From Mobula hypostoma (Eukaryota): a stretch of DNA of 64,000 nucleotides. The notes beneath the pieces are model-generated. The model saw only the letters and a list, made by a program, of their open reading frames with translations. It was not told the DNA's origin and made no database searches. The stretch lies in assembly GCF_963921235.1 (NCBI RefSeq), contig NC_086097.1:57042001-57106000 (forward strand). Reading direction: 5' to 3'. The position numbers and the translations under genes were made by a program. This document shows, one piece after another, positions 4,628 through 52,124 of the stretch; position 1 is the first letter of the stretch, and the number at the start of each line of letters is the position of its first letter.

Positions 4628-4944
4628 GGTTTACTCATAGTTTTTTTTTCTAGTATTGAAATGGCACGTAAACATAATGGAAAATTAAGCATTAACACTT
4701 GGATAATTTTCAGTGTTCTGAGATGCCTTTAATCCTGACACAACGTCATCCATATTTACCAAGTCAGCAATTGTAGGATTCCCCAATGAAGAGTGTTATG
4801 TTTTGTAACTTCAAAACATTAAATTAATTCAAAGGAAGACACAGGAGTTCGAAATGTGTCTAATTTGTTGTTTTACTTTAAGTGAGGTGCACCCGTATCA
4901 CGTGGTTGCATGATGATGTATTCAAGTCACACATTTTCACACAT

Positions 4945-5810
4945 CAAAATTCAAAGTAAAATTGAGAATATAAACATGTCTCCACATACAGCTCTGAGAT
5001 TTTTTTCTCTTGCGGGCATACTGAACAAATTTATGGAGTGGTAACTGTAAATGGGATCAATAAGAGAGCAAGAGCATAGAATACAACAACCTATTGAAAT
5101 GCAAATATAAATAAATTACAATAAATAATGGGAGCACGAACTGACAAAATAAAGAGTCCTTAAAGTAAAATTATTGGTTGTAGGAATATCTTACTATTTG
5201 AGTATAATTATCCTCTTTTGTTCATAGTCTGATGGTTGAGCGGTAGTAACTGTTGAACCTGGTGGTGTGAGTACTGAGGCTCTTGTACCTTCTGCCTGAT
5301 GGCAGCTGCAAGAAAAGGGCTTGGCTTGAGTGGTGAGGAATTTGATCGTTTCTGCTTTCCTACGACAGTGTTTCATGTAGATGTGCTCAATGATTAGGAG
5401 GGTTTTACCCATGGTATATTGGGCTGAATCCACTATCTTTTGTAGGATTTTCCATTCAAAGGTATTGCTGTTCCCATACCAAGCTGTAATATACCCAGTC
5501 AGTAAGCTTTCCATTACACATCTATAGAAGTTCGTCAAAGTTTTTGATGTCCTCCCAAATCTCCACAGCCTTCTATGGAAGTGGAGTCCTGTCATGCTTT
5601 CTTCGCAATTTCATTTATATGAGAGTCCAGGAAAGGTCCTCTGAGATAGTGACACCCAGGAATTTAAAGTTGCTGACCCACTCCACCTCCGATCCTCTGA
5701 TGAGGACTGGCTCATGGATCTTTGGTTTCTCACTGCTGAAGTCCACAATTAGTTCCTTGGTCTTGCTGACATTGAGTGAGAGTTTGTTGTTATGACACCA
5801 TTCAGCTAAA
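4945..5810 (-). mobile_element. Rex1/Babar-type LINE 3' fragment inserted in the 3' LTR
   Basis: WCHNNKLSLNVSKTKELIVDF, FKFLGVTISEDL, ESLLTGYITAWYGN; tttgaa-type tail. Confidence 0.8.
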
Positions 5811-6249
5811 CAGGTTGGCATCAATACCTGTTCGTCCTCTGTTGGGCAATGGTTCAAGGTGTACATATAACCCATAATGAATTATTTAAAACAAACAAGA
5901 ATGTTTTAATCAAACAATATATTTTCGAATCTTACTTAAATATTAAATACTCAGCACTTCTCCCTGCTTAGCTGTAAACTGCTCCATAATAGAAGATGCA
6001 TTTCAACTACATACACAGTGTATTATATCATGCAACTAACATATGCTGGCATTCAAAACTGTCCCATTCAGGCCAAAAGATTCAGTCACTGTGAGATAAC
6101 GTCTTTCCTTGACAAAGGTGATCATTCTGCTTGGCTGGTGAGACTTATGGCTGTGAAACAATCTCAGGTTCTGGGGCCTCCTCGGTGATTGTAGGAGTTG
6201 ACTGAGACTGCAGGAAGTATTTCTGACAGCAGTAGCCACCTTTCTTGTC

Positions 6250-6395
6250 CTTTTCTCAGCTTTTCTCTCTGGATCTACTTCAATCTTTGTTTCTCTTCTG
6301 GCTCTAGCTCTTTCTCTCTCTTTTTCCTTCCTCACATTCCTTCTCTCTTTCATGCCATTTTCTTTCTCAGTCACGTTTGTTCTATCTCTTTCCTC
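6250..6395 (-). pseudogene. RBM25: Continuation of the processed RBM25 fragment (RE/RD-rich region) beyond the L1 insertion
   Basis: Minus strand reads RNKD*SRSREKS*E, compared with DRNKDRSRSREKSR in RBM25; the stops fit CGA>TGA decay. Confidence 0.72.
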
Positions 6396-6945
6396 TTTTT
6401 TTAAATTTTATTTTTATTTGGATAAGGAGTTCACAATTATCATGTACTTTTTTCACACATATAACCTTTTCCATTTTTTTATATGTATAAAACTACAATT
6501 ATTTATACATTCTTAAGTACACATTGAGATGATATAAAAGCAAAATAAACATTTAAATAGATAGTTATGTACTGTGGTAAATCTAACCTATTAGGCTAAG
6601 TAATGAAATTAATTGTTAAGAAAAATGGTAATAATAGTTTCCATACAACCCTTCTGTACCATTTCCACTGGTCCAAAATGTTGCATACAAGCCTATATAC
6701 CAACCATTGTAGGTGTTTATATCCCAATTTGTTCGTGCTTGTTCCTGCCCGCAGACATAATTATCCAATCCCTATGTACTTATTTACTTAATTTTTTCAT
6801 TTTTTTTTTATCCCTTTCCCAAATCTTTCCCTTTACTTGTGTTAAATCTCTATTTTCCAAAAAAAAACAACAAACATTTAGACTAGGGGTGCTTACATTA
6901 GCAATATTACTGTCTTGTTGAGAAGAGCAATATAAATCATTAGAG

Positions 6946-9900
6946 TCATCTAAAGTCTGCTCGCATTGGGGTTATATATTCAATCCATTTATTCCAGATT
7001 TGATAAAATGTTTCTTTTTGAGTTCTCAGGGAGTAGGTCAACTTCTCCATTTTAAATATTTCCAAGATAATTTCGTACCAATCTTCTAATGTAGGTGGTA
7101 TTGGATTTAGCCATTTTCTAGTGATTGATTTCTTACTTGCCGCTAAGAGGGCCTGCAGCAACTTTATATCTTCCTTCTGTTCAAGGAACAATACATGCCC
7201 CAAATAGAGCGTCTCAAAGTTCAGAGGTATCTGGGACCTAAGTACCTTAACTAATGTTCTATGAATACCTTCCCAAAATAGACTTAATTTAGGGCAATCC
7301 CAGAAAATATGAAAATGATTTGCCTCCTTAGAGCCGCACCTTCTCCAACACATCACATTTGTATCTTTATATTTTTCCTGATATGGGGTCTTGAAGTATC
7401 TTATAATGTTTTTCCAACAATGTTCTCTCCAAGTCAAAGAATTAGTCGAGGACCATTGAAAGCTGCAGATTTTCCCCCAAGCCTCCTCTGAAAGTACCAA
7501 CCCCGCTTCTTTCTCCCACTTCTCTTTAATATACAGTGTATTTACATTTTTAGCATGGGAGAGTGCATTATATAGGCGAGAAACTGATTTACTAGGTATT
7601 GAACTGCAAGCCGAATTCAGAATCTTGAAAAATTCTAATTCTACTGTTGATAGGTCTGTATATCTACAACTCTGGTTAACATAGTTTCGTATTTGAAGGT
7701 ACCTAAAAAAGTCATTATGTTCTAGGCCATGTTTGTCCTGCAGGATTTGGAAACTTTGTAATACTCTTATCTATAAATGAGAGGTAGGTTGTAAGACCTT
7801 TCTTTATCCATAGCTCAAATCTTTTATCTCCTCTGTTGGGAAGGAATTCGGTATCATATGCACACCATCTAAAGAGTTTTAGCATGTTATTAATTCCACA
7901 TGAATTAACCACCTTCTGCCATACTTTTAATGTAAGATTTATCCAAGCATTATTAAATTTTTCCAACTGGGCCATCAATCCTTTGTCAGCTATTGAGGCC
8001 TGAAGAGGAAAACTGTCAACTAATCCAAATTCTATTTCCTTCCATCTAGCCTTATATTCCCTATTACACCAATATAACAGAGAGGTTATCTGTGAGGCAT
8101 AAAAATAATTTCTCAGGCAAGGAAGAACCATACCTCCTCTTTCCTTCCCTAACTGTAAGGTGTTATATTGAATTCTAGGTTTCCTTCCTTGCCAAATGAA
8201 GCGGGAAATCCATTTGTCCCATTCCCTGAATTGATTATCATCCACCTCCACTGGTAAAGTACGGAAAAGATATAATAACCGAGGAAGAATATTCATTTTT
8301 ATAGTATTTATCCTTGAATTTAAACTTAAAAAGGGGATAAGATTCCATCTATGCATATCTGCTTTTATCTCTGAGATTAATGGCCCATAATTTACCTGTG
8401 ACAGTGTTGAAAGATCCTTCGGCAGGGTTATTCCTAAATATTTTAATGATTTAGCTTCCCACTTAAGATCGTATGTATCCTGCAATTTTTTGGATGGTGT
8501 ATAATTTAGGGACATAACCTGCGTTTTCTTTACATTTATTTTATAACCTGATATTTTCCCAAAGTCATCCAACAGTGTAAACAATCCTATAAATGATTTT
8601 TCTGGTTCACTCAGATAGACCAAAACATCATCTGCGAATAACGCCACTTTCTGTTCAATCCCTGCCACCTTGATACCCTTTACGATTTCGCTCTGTCTTA
8701 TTAGTTGGGCAAGTGGTTCAATATATAGCGCAAAAAGGAGAGGAGAAATTGGGCATCCCTGTCTAGTGCCTCTCTCTAAAATGAAGGAGTCAGAGAGGTC
8801 CCCATTTATCTTAATTCGGGCTGTTGGGCTGTCATATAGAGTCTGAATTACTTTAATAAACCTTTCCTGAAAGCCGAATCTTCCTAACACTCTGTATAGG
8901 AATGCCCAACTAACCGAATCAAAAGCTTTCTCAGCGTCCAATCCTACTACCATTGTCTCTGTCTCGTTCTTATTAACCTGTTCTAATATGTGCAGAGTTC
9001 TCCTTATGTTGTCCTGTGTTTGTCTTTGTTGAATAAATCCAGTCTGGTCTAAATGGATTAGGCCAGGTAAAAGCTTTTCCAATCTGCGCGCTAATATAGA
9101 TGTAAATAGTTTGTAATCTAAATTAAGAACACTAATTGGCCGATAATTGCCACATTCTAGTTTATCTTTACCCTCTTTAGGAATAACTGAAATAATCGCT
9201 TCTCTCCAGGAAGGTGGAGTTTCTCCTCTCTGCAAGATCCAATTAAAGGTGTTAAGTAGTAATGGGGCTAACTGTGTCTTCAGGGACTTGTACCACTCTG
9301 AGGTAAACCCATCAGAACCCGGGGACTTTCCAGCCTTTAACCTAGAGATGGCCACGTTCAGTTCTTTGACAGTTACTGGTTCTAATAAACTTTCATTTTG
9401 TAAATCTGTAAGTTTAGGTAGATCTAAAAAATTCAATACACTGTCTATATAGGGCTCATTGGGGGCCCAGGGTTGGGAGTACAGCTCTCGATAATACGTT
9501 TCAAAACTCTCTTGAATTTTCCCTATTGTACTCTCCACAAGCTTTGTCTTTGGATTCTTTATTTTATGAATTGTATTGTCTGCTTGTTGTTTTCGTAATT
9601 TATATGCTAATAATCTAGCTGATTTACCTCCTACTTCATAATTCTTTTGTCTCAGGTAAAGAAAGTTTCTTTGAGTTTCCAACGTATAAATATCATCAAT
9701 TTCACTTTGCAATTTCCTAATTCCCTGTTTTCGGTTTGAATTACTTTTGTTGCTATCTCCAACTTGAAGTTGTTTTAATTTTCCTTGAAGGTCTGCTAAT
9801 TTTTGTGCATTGATTTTTTTCATGTGAGTAGTAATGGAAATAATTTTCCCTCTCAGTACAGCTTTCAATGTATCCCATAAAATCACTGGTGATGTTTCTC

Positions 9901-10732
9901 CCGTGTCATTAAGGTCTAGATATTCTTTGATTTCTCCCCTTAATCTCTCCATTACTTTTGGGTTATTAAGTATATGTGAGTTTAGCCTCCATAGTGTTTT
10001 CCTCATTTTCCTTTCCAGGATTAGAGACATAGAGACTGGGCTATGATCCGACAGATCAATTGTTGCAATATTACAGTTTTTTATCCTGAGTCTATCTGTA
10101 TTAAAGATAAAGAAATAGTCTATCCTTGAATAGGCTGAATGAGGGAAAGAGTAATATGTATAATCTTTACTACTAGGGTGTAATTCCCTCCAGACATCTA
10201 TAATTCCCAACTCCTCCATCAATGAATTCACTTTCCGAGTCAGAGGTTTATTCTGAGTAACTATTCTTGAAGAATCTAATATAGGATTTAATCTAATATT
10301 AAAATCCCCTCCACAAATTACTACCCCTTGAGAACTGACCATTAGGTCAAAAATGTGTCTATAAAATGACCATTCACTACCTGGAGGAGCATAAACATTC
10401 AGCAATGTTATTTCTGTACCTTCTATTCTTCCTGTGATTTTTACAAACCGTCCTTCTTTGTCTCTAGTCTCTGAAATATGTTCATAATTAAGAGTACTTG
10501 ATATTAAAGTAGCTACCCCTCTTTTGTGACTCAATTTATATGATGAATAAAATACATGCTTAAAGCCCATTCTTTTTAATTTTCCATGTTCAGATTGGCT
10601 CATATGTGTTTCCTGGAGGAAAGCTATTTGTGCCCTCTCTTTTTTCAATTTAGACATAATCTTATTTCTTTTAATTGGATTCAAAACCCCATTAACATTA
10701 TAGGAAATTATTTTTACCAATTCAGTTTGCAT
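6946..10732 (-). pseudogene. L1 ORF2 (APE endonuclease, RT, CCHC) with one frameshift near 7765
   Basis: SYNVNG, LQETH, GGDFN, SDH; GKSPGSDG, NYRPISVLN, QGCPISPLLF, FADD; the shifted frame continues to CWRRCGSKEANHFHIFWDC. Confidence 0.92.
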
Positions 10733-11095
10733 TTTTCTCTAGTAGAAAAAAAAGCACTCTCCTTTTCTAACCAAACAGTAAGCAATCCCTTCTCAACAGT
10801 AAACCAAGACATATAACCACACCCTAGACATTTCTGAACGTATAACATTTGAAAATTTTCCCCGACTTCCCACAGTGAGGCCTGAGCACCGACCCGCCTC
10901 AGTTCAGAGGGATAACCTCTATCTTCACCATGTGTTAGAGGGCCCTCAGCAGTTTGAATTATCATAGAGAATTTTCTCCTATTTATGTCTCGACCATATT
11001 GCTATCATTCAAGTTATTCCGCCTAGATTATTTTCAGTTACCAGTTTTCATTTTACTTTTAAGTCCGATTTACTCTTTTCAGTCATTTCTCTTAA

Positions 11096-12080
11096 TTAAT
11101 CTGTATTCTCTGTACATTCGCGTCTGAATATTTGCAGCTTTTCCTTGTAGTTTGACACTCTGTTTCAAGTGGAGCGTCCTCGCCCCACTAACTGCCACGA
11201 CTTCTGCCGAATCCTCTCCAGTAGCGACTCCGGTTGGGTGATAACTTTAATAGGTAGTCCCCGGTCCGCCAGGTCCGACGTTGCCTCCTCCACCGTAGCG
11301 TAAGTTTTTGTCCCTTCGTCGTAAAAGACTCTCAGCCGAGCTGGATACAGGGTCTGGAATCTGATGTTGTTTTCCTTCAGGACTCTCCGTGTTTCCGTAT
11401 ATTCCTTCCGTCTGGCAAGAATCCCCGGTGCGTAGTCGTGGTCTAAACTGATTTTACAGTTGTTCCACATGAAACCTTTCTTTTGCCATACTCTTTTAAG
11501 CACCTCTTCCTTCGTTCTGTAACTGAGAAATCTGATCAGAATCGATCTGGGCTGGGCGCCTGCCGGAGGCTGTGGTGCCAACGTGCGGTGAGCCCTTTCT
11601 ATCTGTAGGTCTTTTGCGGCCGGTATATCAAGGTTCTCTCTAAGCAGCTTCTCCACGAAGGGAATCATCAATCCGGGTTTACCTTCGGTTCCTTCGGGAA
11701 CTCCGTAGATCCTCACATTTTCCCTTTTCGAGCGGCCTTCTTGATCTATTAGTTTCCACTGGAGTTGGTCTTGTAGCTTCAGCATTTCTGCTATCACTTC
11801 CTCGGCATTTTGTAGCTTCTCTTCAATTCCAACAATCCTCGCTTCGGCTTCATCTATCCGTGAGTTAGTTTTTACTATTTCTCCTTTAATATCTTCCAGC
11901 TGCTTGCTGTTATCTTGTCGGAACTCGCGAATCTCTCCGAGAATCAAAGACTGAGTCACCGATTTCCCCCTCATTATCTCCGTCCTGGCTTGCCGTGGGA
12001 GAGCTAGGCCCGTCGCCTTGCTGCATCTCTTTATGTTTATCAGCCTTCGAAGCGGACTTTTTATTCTTGTTCTTAGACAT
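11096..12080 (-). pseudogene. L1 ORF1 (coiled coil plus RNA-binding), disrupted by a 1-nt frameshift near 11965 and a TGA at 11165-11167
   Basis: EGRSKRENVRIYGVPEG, IERAHR, PRSILIRFL, YPARLRV; upstream MSKNKNKK in another frame; YKEKLQIFRR after the stop. Confidence 0.8.
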
Positions 12081-12227
12081 CATCCTTGCCCCTTTTATTA
12101 ATATAGTTATGCAATATTAAGTATTTGTCTAAATTCGATTTTGGGGCAGTTTACCTTCTTTTTTGTCGAGAGACCTTTTCCTTACGCCGCCATTCCCTTG
12201 ATGACCCAGAAGTCCTCCTCTTTCCTC

Positions 12228-12745
12228 CTTTTCAACTTCTTGTCTTTCTTTTTCTTGCCTTCTGTTTTCTTTTTTCTGGGATCTTCTTTCTCGATCTTTG
12301 GGAAAGTACGTTTAGTTCACTGGAGTATTCCCTTGTTAATCCTTCTATTGCTCCCTTAAAGATCTGATCTCTCCCTGTGGTTTTCTCATCCACAACATGA
12401 TCTGATGAATCCTCTGTTTTCATATCTCCATTATCTACTTTTACAAGCAGCTTATTGTCTTCCACTTGAAATTCATGCAGTAACCTTAATGCATGCAGAG
12501 TATATTATAGTTCTTTATACTCACAAAAGGTGAATGATTGCAACTTTCCTGAAGCTTGTTGAACTTTCTTACAGCTTAAAACCAAGTCACATTTTGCCTG
12601 ATTAATATATCACAAGCTTTCTCAGATATGTTAACTTCAAAAACTGTTGTAATCGGACCACTGTTTTTGTCACTTTCCCGATTCCAATATGGTCCAATAT
12701 GCTTTCTCGCCAGAGGCACAGAGGTTGGCACCGATACCTGTTTAG
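12228..12745 (-). pseudogene. RBM25: Processed RBM25 fragment (RRM region) inside LTR element copy 1
   Basis: SGPITTVFEVNISEKACDILIRQ, KLLVKVD, RDQIFKGAIEGLTREYSSELN match RBM25; contiguous with no introns; frameshifted. Confidence 0.85.
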
Positions 12746-15700
12746 CCTCTGTTGGGCAATGGTTCATGGTGTACAGCATGGAGACAGTTGTAGCATCATC
12801 CAGTACCTTAATTTGCTTTCAGTCTCTATTGCAGGGAATGTGGCACGCATCTCTAATCATGTTGTAGTTGTCTCAGCCATTCACATCCCCACAATGCTGG
12901 TCCTCCTGTTTTACCACATACAAGGTGCTCAGTGTGGCTTGCTGGTTGTTGTATTTCACTTTTATGAATGTCATTCCCACAGGAGTTACCTTTTCTCCAG
13001 TTGGCTATGTACAGGCTTCAGTTCAATATCTTTGTAATGCTGTTCAAACTTATTTTGTGGAATAACTGAAACAGCTAAGCCAATGTTCAATTCTATTTTA
13101 ATTAATTTTCTGTTCACTTCTGGTATAAGCCATATTGTTTGTGTACTTTTAATTTTCCACACTTATTTATTAAGGCCGCACAGTCCTGTGTCACCTTCAT
13201 TGTTATCAGATTATCACAGTGTGCAGATTAGTGTTCTTTTTGAAACTGCAACTTGACTTTGTATCTTTTCCTCATCCCTGTGCAGTCCATTTATTTTTGT
13301 CTGCCTGACATGCTCCATGTATGTGTCCAACTTCGTTGCATTTTCTGTAGGTTTGGTCCTTAAACCTGCATTGGTCTCATGTATGTGAGCCACTGCCACA
13401 ACGGTAACACAATTTGTTCAGCCAGACCAGTTTCTGTTAAGACGTTACAATTTTGTTCATGCTCAATTTCATTCTTGACTGCAACTCAATTGCTTCTCTG
13501 TCTGCAGTTTCCATTGATACAGTGATTTCAGCTGCTCTTTTAAATGTAAGTTGTGCTTCAGTTGTAAGGTTCCACAAACTAAATGATCTCTCAGTTCATC
13601 ATTAAGACTATTATCGAACTGACAATGCTCAATTTCTTCAATTCAACCACATACCCTGAAATGGACTCCCCTTCCTTTTGATTCTGCTTATGAAACCTAA
13701 AGCGTTCTGTAAGCAAGAATGGCTTTGGTTTTAAATGTTCCTGTAGTACTCTGCCTCTGACAATATCAGCAAAGCTCATTTCTGCTGGTTGGTTTGGAGC
13801 AGTCAAACTTTGAAGCAAACTGTATGCCTTCAAATACAGTACACTCATCAAAATTGGTACCGATTTCCAATTGGCTCTTTCATTTGCTTCAGAATACTGC
13901 TCAATTTGCTCAATATATAAAATCTATTATCTGTTGTGTAATCTAACATGTCAGTCTTTCCAAAGTAGGCAGTCAATTCTGCTTTTTTTAAAATTATTAC
14001 TATTGCCCATTACTCACTCTTTCTGAACCAATGGATTCTTTAGCTTACTGCCTTTTTTAAAAAAACACTTGATTGTCTCTGCACATATGGCTGTTACTTG
14101 CCGGTCCTTGGTGCGTTTCAACAAGTTGGTAATCGTCTTGGGTTCATTTTAAAATACATCGTCACCACTGGCATGGTTTTTAACTTCAAAACATTAAACT
14201 AATTGAAAGGAAGACATGAGAGCCCAAAATATGAGACTAACTTCAGGTTTTACTTGAAGCAAGGAGCTCACATATCAAAGTTCAAAGTACATTTATTATC
14301 AATGTATGTATACATTATACAACCTTGAGATTATTCTGCTTACAAGTAGCCACAAAACAAGAAACCCAAAAAGAAAAAAAACGAATTGTACAAACAAGAA
14401 AAACAATCAAACAGCATTCAGAAAGAAATGGAGTCCGTAGATACGAAGACCGGAGCAGTGAGCAGAACTGGCCAACCCTCACCTCCGGTCCCGACACCCT
14501 GCCTTTTCAATCCATTCAGTCTGGCGTTTAAATCATCCAAACATCAAGCCATTCCATGCTTAAAGACCCGAGCCCTGTCGCATCAATATAGTCTGGGGCT
14601 GGACCCCACCGCCACATTGGGGCCCGTGTCCGACCTTTCCAAATCGGCCTGGTGCAAAACTCCTCCACTCTGATTTTTCTCCACTTTGCATGTCCAGACT
14701 CCATCTCGAACATGCCTTGACCCCTCTCTTCTTTCCAACTGTGATAAAACTGCTGAACGGATCCTGACCCGGATCTGGGCCGTACCCTCCAAATATCCGG
14801 ACCTGCTTCTTGGTTTTTTTTGCACTACCTTACTTTCCCTTTTCTATTTTCTATTTATGATTTATAATTTAAATTTTTAATATTTACTATCGATTTGTGC
14901 TCCAGGGAGCGGGAAGTGCAGAATCAAATATCGCTGTGATGATCATACGTTCTAGTATCAATTGTTTGGCGACAATAAAGTAAAGTATTTCTTGCTTTGG
15001 GAACCATCGGTAAGCTGTCGCTCATCCTCAGTAGCACCGTCTTAAACATGGTGAAGTATGGCGTATGCAATTCACGTATATTTACATATAAGCAGTTATG
15101 AATTATTGAAATGAACAAGAATGCTAAATCAAACAATATATTTACAAGACTACTTAAATATTCAATATACAGCAAAGAGGATGGCTGAATGGGATTACAG
15201 GTTTGGCACAGAGAATAAATGACATTGTAATTTTGGAGGTTTCCACTAAAAATGAATGGTCTTGCTCATTTCCTTTTAAAGGCAGTGATGCAACAACGAA
15301 TGGGATATTTCCCAGTTTTCCACTCTCCCTTCCCAATTTGTTTGCTAGAATAGCAGTCCACAAACACTGTTTCTTCTCTATACCTTTTTCAGGTTGCACT
15401 TCTTCTTGTATGAATTCCATGCACAAGGCACGGTTGAAACTTCTCATGTCTCATGTAATGTAAAATAGTTACAAAAATCTGCAGATGCTGCAAGTGCCCA
15501 GATTGGACAGCACCTGTTTTTTTTAAAAAGAGCAATAGTGTTAGCGTTTCAAATTGATGACTCTAATAAATTATTTGATAGCAGAAGCAGAATCAGGTTT
15601 AATATCACTGCCATATGTCATGAAATTTGGTGTTTTTCAACTGCAGTACTTTGCAATATATAATAAAAAATATAAATTACAATGAAATGTATATAAAAAT

Positions 15701-48790: not shown

Positions 48791-48911
48791 CAGGTTGGGA
48801 GGACGGGGGTAATCGTGGCCGGAGTCTTTGGGGCTGCATTCATCGGTTACTGCATATATTTTGACAGGAAAAGAAGAAGAGCCCCTGATTTCAGAGTAAA
48901 ATTGCGCGAAA
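48785..48911 (+). CDS. TOMM20L: TOMM20-family (TOMM20L-position) mitochondrial import receptor, coding exon 1; later exons not identified in the window
   Basis: MLQVGRTGVIVAGVFGAAFIGYCIYFDRKRRRAPDFRVKLRE is the TOM20 signal anchor; A|gtaagt donor; lies downstream of ARID4A on the same strand. The paralog name rests on synteny. Confidence 0.85.
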
Positions 48912-49551
48912 GTAAGTGTTGCTCCGCCCACTGTTACCAGCGACAACTTGGTATTACCATTTAATGGTGGCGGCCGGGACGTGTGGGAGAAGCCCCGGCG
49001 GCATTTCTCAAACTTGTTCTGGTTTCGGCGAAGTAGCAAGATTCTGGGAGAGTAGTGTCAGAGATAAATGCTGGAAATCCGATATCTGCTGGAAGCAGTA
49101 AGTAGGTCAGGGAGAATCCTGGTAAACAGTTAATGCTTCAGGTGGAAGGGAACAGGCTGTTTCCAGCATTTTCCATTATATTTATAGCAGCGTACAACTA
49201 TTTTATAAAGTAAATTATGTACCCGATTCAGGATTGAAATAAGCGCGTTTTGCATCAGCATCTACTTTTTATCGTAAATTTTGGCTAATTCTAAAACATA
49301 CTGTCAGAATTTATTCAATGTAGAATAATTGGATCGGTAGGAAATAGAGGTTATTGCATGAGGATTCACAGGTCAAGGACTGATGCAGCTTGATTAGCTT
49401 TGGAAGTTTATACAAGTGTACCGAAATACAAGAAAATATATGAACTGCAAGCTTCTGTTCAATTATCCATAGAACTTGGAGGAGTTGTAGGTGATGCAGC
49501 ACAGCTAAAGAAAAGTCCCCGGAGGTGCATATTCAGGAGACCTACCAGGAT

Positions 49552-51982
49552 TGTTGTGTGTTTAATATTTGAGAAATATTGTAAATATTTTGATTATGTA
49601 TTCTGTTGTTTACATCATGCGCTGCGGTGAAAGTGCGTAAATGGCATAGGTCATCACGCCGCCACGTCATATGCGCACACCTTGCTTAAAGTACTAAATT
49701 GAGCTAAACTAAGACTCATGTCTTTTAGCTCCCTTGTTTTCCTTTCAGTTAGTTTTATGTTTTGGAGTTTAAAAACGTAACAGTGGCGATGGGGCATTTT
49801 TAAAACAAACCCGAGACGACAACCTACTTGCTGAAACCCAGCGAGAAACAGTTGAATTTTTAAAAAATCCGCGATTCCATTTCTAAATGGACATTAAACA
49901 CCACCTCACCAGCTTTCTGCACCACTTTTTAAATATTTAATATACATATATACACTTTTCCCTATACTTATCATGTGTTGTACTGCTGCCGCAACGTTAA
50001 CACATTTCACGACGTATACCGGTGGTGTAAACTTGACTCTGAAAAAGCGCAGTACTTTTTTTTCCTCATCGGAGCAGCACGTTTCTTTCACAAAAGTAAG
50101 GAGATCGATTTTTAAAAAAAGACAGAAAGCGGGTTAATAAACAGTGAGTACCGGGTGATTTTTTTTTAAGAGTAGAAATGGCTGGCTACCTTGGAAAGAC
50201 TGATGTATTTCATCACACAAGAGATAAAATTAATGATGCACTGATAGATCGTTTAGTTTGTTGAATCTTACAAGAAAACATTCAAAAACGGTTCCTAACT
50301 GAAGCACAACAAAAGAGCAGTTGAAATTGCTGCATTAATAGAAACAGCAGACAGCAATTGAGTTGCAGTTGGGAATAAAAGTGACTGCACTGGGAAGAGA
50401 AAAAGATAAAAAGTCAAAATTCAGTTTTTAAGAAGAGCTGTTGATAAAATCTGATGAGAGTGACATAGGACCGAGTAGCCTTCAGATTTCAATGTGAAAA
50501 CTAATAATAGCCTATATTAATAAATGTGGCTTACACCAAAAGTAAATGGCAAGTTAATTAAAATGGAATTGGACACTGGCTGAGCTGTTTGTCATTCCAC
50601 AGTGTGAGTTTGAATTGAAGTTTGCAGATATCCAACTAAGAACTGGTACTGGAGCAAAGCTAACTCCTGTGGGAATGGCATTTGGAGCAGTGAGATCTAA
50701 CAACCGACAAGCCACATTGTGCTTGTATGCGTTTAGAAACGGGAGGGCCAGCAGTGTGGGGACGTGATTACCAACCACAACTTGATTGGAGCTCTGCTCA
50801 TTAGTTGCATCCCTTGCAAGAGAGTCAGCTGAATGCAAACTAAGATAGGTACTGGGTGATGTCACAATTGTCTCCGTGCTGCACATCATGAACAGAAGGC
50901 AAATGGGTGTTGGTGCCAACCTCTGTGCTTCTGGTTGGAAAGCAAATGGGATCAAGAAAGGAACATGTTGCTCAGAAATCATGAAAGTGACAAAAGCAAT
51001 GGTCCAACTACAACTGCTTTTGTAGGCAACGTATCTGAGAAAGCTTCTGATAATAATCATGCAGTTACTTGCAAAATGCAGTTTGGTTTTAAGCTGGAAG
51101 AGAGTTTAGGAGCTTCAGGAAAGTTGCAAACATTGTTTTTTTTTGTGAGTATAAAGAGCCAGAATCTACACTGCGTGCATTAAGGCAAGAATTTCAAGTG
51201 TGAGACAAAAAGCAAACCATGAAGAGAGATCAGATTGTGAAGGGAGCAGTAGAAGGATCAATAGGAGAATACTCCAGTGAATTAAATGCACCTTCCCAAG
51301 ATCAAGATGCAGAAAATAGAAAAAAAGAGGATGCCTTAAGTGCTATGGAAATGGAAGAAAATAAACGAGACAATTTCTTGAAATTAGCAAATGCAGAGGT
51401 ATTGACAAGAAAGTAGAAGGAAAAGGAAGACAAGAAATAGAAAAGGAGAGATAGAGAATGAGTGAGAGAGAAGGAATGTGAAACAGAAGTAGTGCAGGAT
51501 AAGGAGAAAAGTTGTGACTGGGAGAGAAGCGAGGATCAATGTAGATCCAGAGAATAAAGCTAAGGAAAGGTGAAGAAAGGTGTTCAGATCTGTCAGAACC
51601 ACTTCTGGCAGTCTCAGAGTCAACTCCTACAAACACCATGGAGGAGGCCCCAGAGCCTGAGATTGTATATGTATTATATAGTATATTGTATATGTAAGTT
51701 GTGATGCATTCTACATTGAGGTGGAGGTAATAGCTGAGAAAGGGGAAGAGTTGTGTATTTAATATTAAAGTAATATTTGAGCAACACTAATATATTGTTT
51801 GATTAAGCATTCTTCGTTTACATATTATCGGTTAAATGTAAGTACGTGAATGCAATGCGTCATGCTGCAATGTCATATGCGTGCGCCTTGCTTAAAGTAA
51901 AAACTGAACCAAGACTTGCACCCCTCGGCTCCCTTGTTTTCCTTTCAATTAGTTTTATATTTTGGAGTTACAAAACATAACA
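49552..51982 (+). mobile_element. Non-autonomous Gypsy-type LTR retrotransposon, copy 2, carrying an RBM25-derived segment
   Basis: 5' LTR 49552-49782 (tgttg...taaca); PBS-like gtggcgatg; gag MAGYLGKTD and DRLVC remnants; protease KMELDTG; PPT gagaaaggggaagag; 3' LTR about 51750-51982; TSD aggat at 49547-49551 and 51983-51987. Confidence 0.9.
50905..51570 (+). pseudogene. RBM25: Processed RBM25 fragment inside LTR element copy 2
   Basis: VLVPTSV..VGKQMG, GPTTTAFVGNVSEKASD, QLLAKCSLVLSWKRV, GASGKLQ, CEYKEPESTLRALR, RDQIVKGAVEGSIGEYSSELNAPSQ, MEMEENKRD; intronless and frameshifted. Confidence 0.9.
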
Positions 51983-52124
51983 AGGATGACTAGCTTTTAT
52001 TTTATTTCAGTGGGGTGTGTTATGTGGGATTGGAGTAGGTGTGGGAAACTTTAGACAGAATGAGAGGGTGTGTAGTTCATGAAGTGCTGCATTATTTTGC
52101 ATTATTCACACTGATCCTGAGGTA

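What the first reader, a model, noticed from the sequence alone, without database searches (positions are those of the whole stretch)
49552..51982. Compact LTR retrotransposon whose pol core is replaced by a processed host RBM25 mRNA fragment
Seen: a 2.4-kb unit in the order TSD aggat, LTR, PBS, gag and protease remnants, about 0.65 kb of RBM25-like sequence, a short pol C-terminal tail, PPT, LTR, aggat. No RT, RNaseH or integrase-core motifs are visible. Known: the peptides match the RRM and RE/RD-rich region of splicing factor RBM25 and run without introns. Inference: an mRNA was captured by template switching during LTR reverse transcription, as in transducing retroviruses, and the chimera was then mobilised in trans. 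It sits in intron 1 of the TOMM20-like gene.
Basis: partly seen in the sequence, partly recalled or inferred. Interest (0 to 1): 0.88.

Follow-up and report, generated by a model that had tools for sequence, protein, structure and literature searches.

The report
Retrotransposon family carrying captured RBM25 mRNA
This is one old, decayed copy of a jumping-gene family that long ago swapped its own replication genes for a spliced piece of the host splicing-factor gene RBM25 and then multiplied to thousands of copies, a clear but not unprecedented case of gene capture by a retrotransposon.

Summary
Observation confirmed, interpretation supported and sharpened. Window 49552-51982 is an LTR retrotransposon copy (LTRs 231/234 nt, 79% alike, TG..CA, 5-bp duplication AGGAT) with gag and protease remnants, no RT/RNase H/integrase, about 0.7 kb of RBM25 sequence and a short pol C-terminal tail. 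The insert is collinear with the spliced exons of this genome's own RBM25 gene (C1:99.79-99.84 Mb, minus strand). It spans a 48-nt alternative exon plus seven canonical exons or exon parts, with no introns. Both junctions lie in short microsimilarities between element and mRNA (11 of 12 nt at the 5' side, 8 nt at the 3' side), the signature of two template switches during reverse transcription. A splice-mediated capture, which I favoured at first, was refuted. It is not a one-off. Every copy examined shares the same two junctions, the genome search flags about 2,800 candidate places, and copies differ neutrally. A related organism's DNA holds this same insertion at the same site. Pol-bearing relatives of the same lineage exist, so mobilisation in trans is the likely route. 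The scan found this family before on other DNA of the same genome (e1-7790852). Known mechanism (LTR-mediated retroposition), with an unusually successful product in a vertebrate.

The parts
49547..49551 (.). left target-site duplication AGGAT
   Evidence: identical 5-mer at 51983-51987
49552..49782 (+). 5' LTR (231 nt, TG...CA)
   Evidence: the LTR family has 1719 first-look candidates in the genome, 40 scored, best non-self match 76%
49784..49796 (+). PBS-like stretch starting TGG, one base after the LTR
   Evidence: read; no tRNA was matched
50178..50303 (+). gag remnant (start MAGYLGK...), lacking the equivalent of about 105 residues of the fish relative P0121
   Evidence: P0121 residues 1-16 and 122-148 abut in the window
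50524..50801 (+). aspartic protease remnant (KMELDTG, then ..GRD..QLDW), with stops
   Evidence: protease ORFs of sister copies score just under the Pfam cut-offs; a profile of them finds 1525 proteins at E<=0.001
50860..50871 (+). 5' switch point. In better-kept copies this 12-nt stretch reads TGCCACAACTGT, which is the last 10 nt of the canonical RBM25 exon plus the first 2 nt of the 48-nt exon. It matches the element's own pol sequence at 11 of 12 positions.
50870..51578 (+). RBM25-derived spliced mRNA fragment. Blocks: 48-nt alternative exon (with an 11-nt loss), then exon blocks at 50903-51072, 51074-51129, 51141-51213, 51211-51325, 51328-51415, 51418-51469, 51516-51550 and 51551-51578. 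81-89% identical to host exons. Own deletions of 114 nt (mRNA-piece positions 365-478) and most of the RE/RD part.
51572..51579 (+). 3' switch point inside the purine run (AGAAGAAA in better-kept copies), shared by RBM25 exon 8 and the element's native sequence upstream of the tail
51580..51666 (+). pol C-terminal tail
   Evidence: Homologous DNA lies in the pol-bearing relative L003 and the non-chimeric copy in L035. A sister-copy ORF aligns to the last 29 residues of P0121, 13 of 25 identical, E 5e-4.
51736..51748 (+). polypurine tract
   Evidence: read; a similar stretch precedes the LTR in L003, L007 and L010
51749..51982 (+). 3' LTR (234 nt)
51983..51987 (.). right target-site duplication AGGAT
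48818..48919 (+). exon 1 of the TOMM20-like host gene whose intron holds the element
   Evidence: PF02064 positions 1-34; motif seen

Best explanation
The element is a non-autonomous Ty3/gypsy-type LTR retrotransposon. It arose once, when reverse transcriptase copying an autonomous element's RNA inside a virus-like particle switched templates twice.

First switch: from the element's pol tail onto a co-packaged, spliced RBM25 mRNA. This happened at an 8-nt match in exon 8.

The enzyme then copied the mRNA backwards through seven exon junctions. These included a 48-nt alternative exon.

Second switch: back onto the element RNA at an 11-of-12-nt match, just after the protease.

The product kept the LTRs, PBS, leader, gag, protease, pol tail and PPT. 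It lost RT, RNase H and integrase. Using those enzymes from related autonomous elements, it then multiplied to thousands of copies. A shorter subfamily arose from it by an internal deletion. The window copy is one long-form copy that landed in an intron of a TOMM20-like gene and has since decayed.

Shown: the anatomy, the spliced host origin, the shared junctions, the microsimilarities, neutral decay, and the orthologous insertion in a relative. Inferred: co-packaging, the order of the switches, and the trans helper.
For: Host gene. The RBM25 C-terminus maps only to C1:99791418-99802552 (3 of 3 matches). tblastn gives 13 collinear exon hits up to 99840648.

Intronless capture. Window blocks abut while their host counterparts lie 1.7-6 kb apart. 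The host blocks are flanked by AG/GT. 15 of 18 copy rows align to the spliced mRNA piece as one HSP from positions 1-4 across at least the first four junctions; L023 and L027 run to position 1062.

5' junction. The canonical exon C1:99838488-99838439 ends ..TGCCACAACT|gt. The pol-bearing relative L035 reads ..TGCCACAAGTGTTC.. at the same place. Of 16 chimera rows, 14 carry the host-type C and none the G.

3' junction. It lies mid-exon, inside AGAAGAAA, which is also present in the native element sequences L003 and L035-minus. The chance of an 8-nt exact run at a random pair of positions is 2-4 in 10,000.

Family. 2842 first-look candidates, of which 40 were scored. All 11 loci fetched with the RBM25 part carry RBM25 followed by the same tail; 9 of 11 then have the LTR, and 8 of 11 have the protease directly upstream.

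Neutral decay. dN/dS among 18 copies is 0.72 in frame, against 0.69 and 0.67 in the shifted frames.

Relatives with pol. L035 has gag and protease, then RT_RNaseH_2 at E 5e-12. L003 has the same RNase H region, the tail and the family LTR. Among 12 database hits of the protease profile that were scanned, 5 show RT, RNase H and then integrase.

Age. LTR K2P is 0.25. A contig of organism B bridges the 5' LTR-flank boundary (record 25).
Against: - No intact autonomous partner with this LTR was recovered. The link rests on two degraded relatives (L035, L003), and L035's own LTR was not seen.
- The host-type base at the 5' junction is judged against a single pol-bearing relative.
- The copies sampled are the best-scoring ones, so they are a biased sample. 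Copy number is a first-look candidate count, not a census.
- A target-site duplication was checked only for the window copy.
- An RBM25 paralogue as the true donor cannot be excluded, because RRM-region searches are swamped by the family.
- Use of the 48-nt exon in this species' own transcripts was not shown with RNA.
Confidence: 0.88

Rival explanations
1. Classical retroviral-type transduction. An element inserted upstream within RBM25, a read-through transcript was spliced from a donor in pol to an RBM25 acceptor, and only the 3' junction was made by recombination.
For: Homology to the host seemed to begin exactly at the acceptor of the 48-nt exon. The relative L035 has GT right at the break.
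Against: The 10 nt before the 48-nt exon in the chimera are identical to the end of the canonical upstream RBM25 exon. The mRNA was therefore normally spliced upstream of the break, and the break lies inside an 11-of-12-nt microsimilarity. No element remnant lies in the relevant host intron.
Confidence: 0.04
2. An ordinary LINE-made RBM25 processed pseudogene landed inside an LTR element, which later lost pol by deletion.
For: Processed pseudogenes are common in vertebrates. An intronless TOMM20 copy exists in this genome.
Against: There is no poly(A) tail and no duplication around the insert, and the 3' end is mid-exon, far from the mRNA's 3' end. The insert replaces pol exactly between two microsimilarities. 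The same junctions occur in all copies examined.
Confidence: 0.03
3. The many copies arose by DNA-level (segmental) duplication, not retrotransposition of the chimera.
For: L020 and L021, both on C96 and 1 Mb apart, are near-identical, so some copies were duplicated as DNA.
Against: The best 40 matches lie on many contigs with similar mutual divergence. Copies carry their own LTRs. The window copy has its own 5-bp duplication. The flanks of different copies hold unrelated sequence.
Confidence: 0.02

Closest known systems
LTR-mediated retroposition / chimeric retrocopies (Tan et al. 2016, Genome Res, PMC5131818; abstract and found passages read)
   Same: An intronless mRNA fragment replaces part of the internal ORFs of an LTR element. 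Microsimilarity marks both switch points (their median is 6 bp; 8 and 11-of-12 here). Their model has two template switches in a virus-like particle. They also note that such loci can act as non-autonomous elements and be retroposed again.
   Different: Their cases are young and single or few-copy (fly, mosquito, zebrafish, chicken, mouse, human). Here the chimera became a family with thousands of candidate places, split into two subfamilies, and is old (LTR K2P 0.25).
Bs1 of maize, an LTR retroelement with transduced host gene segments (as described in the review PMC13317346, passages read)
   Same: A non-autonomous LTR element whose interior holds host gene fragments in place of pol.
   Different: Bs1 is a plant element with three donor genes. 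It is reported there as forming a new expressed chimeric gene. No sign of such a host function was seen here.
Acutely transforming (oncogene-transducing) retroviruses (review PMC4276931, passages read; the read-through/splice plus recombination model itself is recalled)
   Same: A replication-defective chimera that lost coding sequence, carries a spliced host gene piece fused in frame to gag-side sequence, and needs a helper.
   Different: No env. Spread was in the germline as a retrotransposon. The 5' junction is not a splice junction. The captured piece is a truncated splicing factor with no evident growth effect.
Non-autonomous/autonomous LTR pairs such as MaLR-MERVL (named in PMC5131818) and ETn-MusD (recalled)
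   Same: Short pol-less elements sharing LTRs with a coding partner and outnumbering it.
   Different: In those pairs the interior is not a recognisable host mRNA.

Membership tests
LTR retrotransposon, Ty3/gypsy type (non-autonomous derivative) | Paired LTRs with TG..CA ends and a 4-6 bp target-site duplication | tested here: met
   231/234-nt LTRs, 79% alike, AGGAT on both sides
LTR retrotransposon, Ty3/gypsy type (non-autonomous derivative) | PBS after the 5' LTR and PPT before the 3' LTR | tested here: inconclusive
   A TGG-starting stretch and a purine run are at the right places. No tRNA complement was identified.
LTR retrotransposon, Ty3/gypsy type (non-autonomous derivative) | gag with CCHC knuckles and an aspartic protease (D-T/S-G) | tested here: met
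   Window remnants. Sister ORFs have two CX2CX4HX4C motifs (L021) and DTG (L015). The Pfam protease hits are just under their cut-offs: 24.5 against 28.2 bits. The profile search gives 56 proteins at E<=1e-10.
LTR retrotransposon, Ty3/gypsy type (non-autonomous derivative) | pol order protease-RT-RNase H-integrase in coding relatives | tested here: met
   5 of 12 scanned database relatives show RVT_1, RT_RNaseH and then rve. L035 shows gag-protease, then the RT start and RNase H.
Autonomous LTR retrotransposon | Own RT, RNase H and integrase | tested here: not met
   0 Pfam families in 3 of 3 frames. The interior is fully accounted for by gag, protease, RBM25 and the tail.
LTR-mediated retroposition chimera (Tan et al. 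2016) | Intronless parental mRNA fragment flanked by discontinuous parts of one LTR element | tested here: met
LTR-mediated retroposition chimera (Tan et al. 2016) | Microsimilarity between mRNA and element at both switch points | tested here: met
   11 of 12 nt and 8 nt. Chance of an 8-nt run is 2-4e-4.
Retroviral read-through/splice transduction | 5' junction joins an element splice donor to a host exon acceptor | tested here: not met
   The break lies inside the last 10 nt of the upstream canonical exon, not at an exon start.
RBM25 protein family (for the insert) | RRM followed by an RE/RD-rich region | tested here: met
   RRM_1 at E 9.4e-7 and 1.5e-5 in two sister ORFs. RBM25 best hits. 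The RE/RD exon is present in long-form copies.
RBM25 protein family (for the insert) | C-terminal PWI domain and N-terminal proline-rich part (a whole gene) | tested here: not met
   The capture ends 28 nt into exon 8 and starts at the end of the exon before the RRM. The C-terminal part is found only in the host gene.

The most novel reading that the evidence does not exclude
The RBM25 piece was not a passive filler. A Gag-protease-RRM/RE-RD fusion protein is in frame at the 5' junction. Such a protein, or the RBM25 RNA sequence itself, may have given the chimera an edge over its parent, which would explain why this one accident out-multiplied its helper. The edge could be better packaging of its own RNA, nuclear-speckle targeting, or interference with host splicing or with small-RNA silencing that would also hit the essential RBM25 gene. 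A corollary is that thousands of RBM25-exon copies now expose the host gene to cross-silencing.
Probability: 0.1. Interest if true: 0.75.

Novelty: new member of a known kind. Interest (0 to 1): 0.48.

Why it matters
It gives a fully resolved vertebrate example of an accidental mRNA capture turning into a highly successful parasite of a retrotransposon. Donor gene, both switch points, the native element sequence at both points and the derived subfamily are all identified. It also preserves a molecular fossil of an RBM25 splice isoform containing a 48-nt exon. That exon still sits, with intact splice sites, in the host gene and opens a shark RBM25-like gene model. In practice, thousands of RBM25-like fragments can mislead gene annotation and expression counts for RBM25 in these genomes.

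Tried and rejected
- My own splice-donor capture model (after) was rejected once the canonical upstream exon was read.
- Pfam on the window's three frames found nothing.
- The PDB sequence search gave only generic RRMs, 5 hits and none RBM25.
- The PWI family search led to other genes on C76 and C2. The 80 kb fetched there held no RBM25, though by luck it held the pol-bearing relative L035.
- The protease ORF against longer proteins in the word-indexed database found none among 200 candidates.
- Pfam on DNA upstream of three LTR-only loci (9 frames) and on L036 (3 frames) found nothing.
- A DNA search with the L003 RT region was swamped by a nested SINE-like repeat.
There is therefore no census, no survey of LTR ages, and no intact helper.
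- A scan for TOMM20 exon 2 using recalled motifs found only exon 1. A wider Pfam scan failed on length and was not repeated.
- RNA: no RNA holder is listed. Runs X5 and X10, guessed to be RNA, gave low-depth exact contigs over the element and the neighbouring intron alike. They say nothing about expression of the element.
- Organism C bridges the 3' boundary with only 31 letters on the LTR side (record 16). Organism B's record 32 has 27 letters and does not count.
- Selection on the RBM25 frame among copies: none detectable. This cannot speak to the master copies.

Full report
**What is there.** The window stretch 49552-51982 has two direct repeats about 2200 nt apart.
- Aligned as LTRs (49552-49782 and 51749-51982), they share 174 of 220 aligned positions (79%), K2P 0.25. 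Of the 46 differences, 10 touch a CpG.
- The 5' LTR starts TG and both end CA. The pentamer AGGAT flanks both ends, at 49547-51 and 51983-87.
- A TGG-starting stretch follows the 5' LTR after one base, and a 13-nt purine run precedes the 3' LTR.
- Pfam finds no family in any of the 3 forward frames of the interior at E<=1.
- A fish gag-pol fragment found later (P0121) maps by tblastn to the gag start (50178-50225), gag (50223-50303), the protease DTG region (50524-50589) and the protease end (50733-50801). The equivalent of about 105 gag residues is missing.

**The insert is RBM25.** The window copy is too broken for a direct protein search, so I used intact reading frames from sister copies.
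- Two of them carry RRM_1, at E 9.4e-7 and 1.5e-5, both above the curated cut-off.
- A 182-aa frame finds 241 proteins at E<=0.001 among 1444 candidates. Of the 120 listed, most of the rows that carry a name are called RBM25 or RBM25b. The top hit has E 2.8e-56 and 71% identity over 76% of the query.
- Solved structures gave only generic RRMs (5 hits).

**The donor gene and the exon junctions.**
- The C-terminal 159 residues of gar RBM25 hit the genome only at C1:99791418-99802552 on the minus strand (3 of 3 matches).
- tblastn over 100 kb gives 13 collinear exon hits up to 99840648.
- The window's RBM25 part aligns to seven blocks of this gene at 81-89% identity. The blocks abut in the element but lie 1.7-6 kb apart in the gene.
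- Each host block is bounded by AG and GT.
- I joined the exons in a script and aligned the 18 copy rows I held to that piece. 15 of 18 align as one HSP from positions 1-4 across at least the first four junctions, at 78-88% identity. Two of them (L023, L027) run to position 1062, 28 nt into the eighth exon of the piece.
- The three exceptions, the window copy among them, are shortened by their own deletions.
- The first exon of the piece is a 48-nt in-frame exon (C1:99832633-99832586) that is absent from gar RBM25. The canonical exon before it is at 99838488-99838439.
- The same peptide (MLYTMNRCPTEGKQ) opens an NCBI gene model of a shark, Heptranchias perlo RBM25-like isoform X1. It is therefore a real alternative exon.

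**The junctions.** At first the homology seemed to start exactly at the acceptor of the 48-nt exon. A pol-bearing relative (L035) shows GT at the break, which suggested capture by splicing. Reading the canonical upstream exon refuted this.
- 5' side, host: the canonical exon ends ..TGCCACAACT, and that is exactly what precedes the 48-nt exon in the chimera.
- 5' side, element: the element's own pol reads ..TGCCACAAGTGT.. there, which is 11 of 12 identical.
- At the one differing position, 14 of 16 chimera rows have the host base and none has the element base. L019 and L025 are the same locus.
- Upstream of this stretch the chimera follows the element, and a sister ORF aligns to P0121 up to the residue before its RT start.
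- 3' side: host homology stops mid-exon in AGAAGAAA. Two non-chimeric relatives (L003 and a minus-strand copy in L035) hold the same 8-mer just upstream of the tail.
- In shuffling-free sampling of 200,000 random position pairs, an exact run of 8 or more occurs in 0.036% (5' side) and 0.016% (3' side) of pairs.
- The tail DNA recurs in L003 and L035. A sister ORF of the tail aligns to the last residues of P0121 (13 of 25 identical, E 5e-4).
- The 5' junction keeps the reading frame, because both partners share the Ala-Thr codons there. By my reading, the 3' junction does not keep the pol tail's frame.

**A family, not an event.**
- The RBM25 part has 2842 first-look candidates in the 3.48-Gb genome, 40 of them scored at 79-83% identity. 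The LTR has 1719.
- Gar RBM25 gives 54 scored matches. All are contiguous, carry stop codons and cover residues between about 60 and 413. The 81,838 candidates of that call include low-complexity hits and are not a count.
- All 11 loci fetched with the RBM25 part have RBM25 followed by the same tail. 9 of 11 then have the LTR. 8 of 11 have the protease directly upstream, and 6 of 11 have gag.
- A short form jumps from the end of the fifth exon of the piece to the purine run of the eighth. It keeps the same 3' junction, so it derives from the long form by deletion.
- The window holds a second, interrupted copy on the minus strand.

**Selection and age.**
- Among 18 copies (153 pairs; L025 dropped as a duplicate), dN/dS in the RBM25 frame is 0.72, against 0.69 and 0.67 in the two shifted frames. 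The copies therefore diverged neutrally.
- Copy against host gives 0.33, against 0.94 and 0.86 in the shifted frames. This reflects constraint on the host gene and/or the stem lineage and cannot be split without an outgroup.
- Every copy has stops or gaps.
- The copies are a biased sample, since they are the best-scoring ones.
- If a neutral rate near 1e-9 per site per year is assumed (not measured here), the LTR distance suggests an age of the order of 100 million years.
- A DNA contig of coded organism B, at single-copy depth, bridges the 5' flank-LTR boundary (record 25) and further contigs tile the element at about 98% identity. The insertion therefore predates that split.
- Organism C bridges the 3' boundary with only 31 letters.

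**Helpers.**
- L035 carries gag and protease homologous to the family, followed by an RT start and RT_RNaseH_2 (E 5e-12).
- L003 carries the same RNase H region, the tail, a PPT and the family LTR. Both are degraded.
- A profile of four natural protease ORFs finds 1525 proteins at E<=0.001. The best is P0121, a Metynnis hypsauchen hypothetical protein.
- Of 12 hits scanned, 5 have RT, RNase H and then integrase, which is the Ty3/gypsy order.

**Context.** TOMM20-like exon 1 lies at 48818-48919, on the same strand. The last exon is beyond the window. Exon 2 was not found.

**Comparison and novelty.** The anatomy and both microsimilarities match the two-switch model of Tan et al. 2016 (abstract and passages read). 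That paper already notes that such loci can behave as non-autonomous elements. Maize Bs1 is the classic plant parallel (review passages). Two full-text searches for RBM25 with retrotransposon terms found no report of this capture, and a third with shark terms found none. Repeat libraries could not be checked. The scan had already noted the same family 51 Mb away (e1-7790852). I rate it a new member of a known kind. It is notable for its copy number in a vertebrate and for how completely the capture can be reconstructed.

Noticed in passing
window about 4794-14275, minus strand: A second copy of the same RBM25-carrying family, with gag, protease, RBM25, tail and LTR pieces in order. It is split by a roughly 6-kb and a roughly 1-kb foreign insertion.
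   Followed up: partly
G000:C1:99832633-99832586 (locus L047): The host RBM25 gene has a 48-nt in-frame alternative exon (VSMLYTMNRCPTEGKQ) with a polypyrimidine tract and AG/GT. It is absent from gar RBM25 but opens a Heptranchias perlo RBM25-like isoform model.
   Followed up: partly
L003:121-430: A SINE-like repeat of about 310 nt nested in a degraded pol-bearing element. The 40 scored genome matches are 91-94% identical, out of 9021 first-look candidates, so this is a young, very abundant family.
   Followed up: no
G000:C66:39231104-39231445 and C2:84825692-84830613: Besides the window's TOMM20-like gene there is an intronless full-length TOMM20 copy in a 144-aa open frame, likely a retrogene, and a second intron-bearing paralogue.
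   Followed up: no
L020 and L021 (G000:C96:35.21 Mb and 34.15 Mb): Two family copies 1 Mb apart in opposite orientation have almost identical ORFs, pointing to a recent inverted segmental duplication.
   Followed up: no
G000:C1:99876647-99876890 (locus L051): A solo or partial LTR of the same family lies about 36 kb upstream of the RBM25 coding exons. With thousands of copies this is probably coincidence.
   Followed up: no
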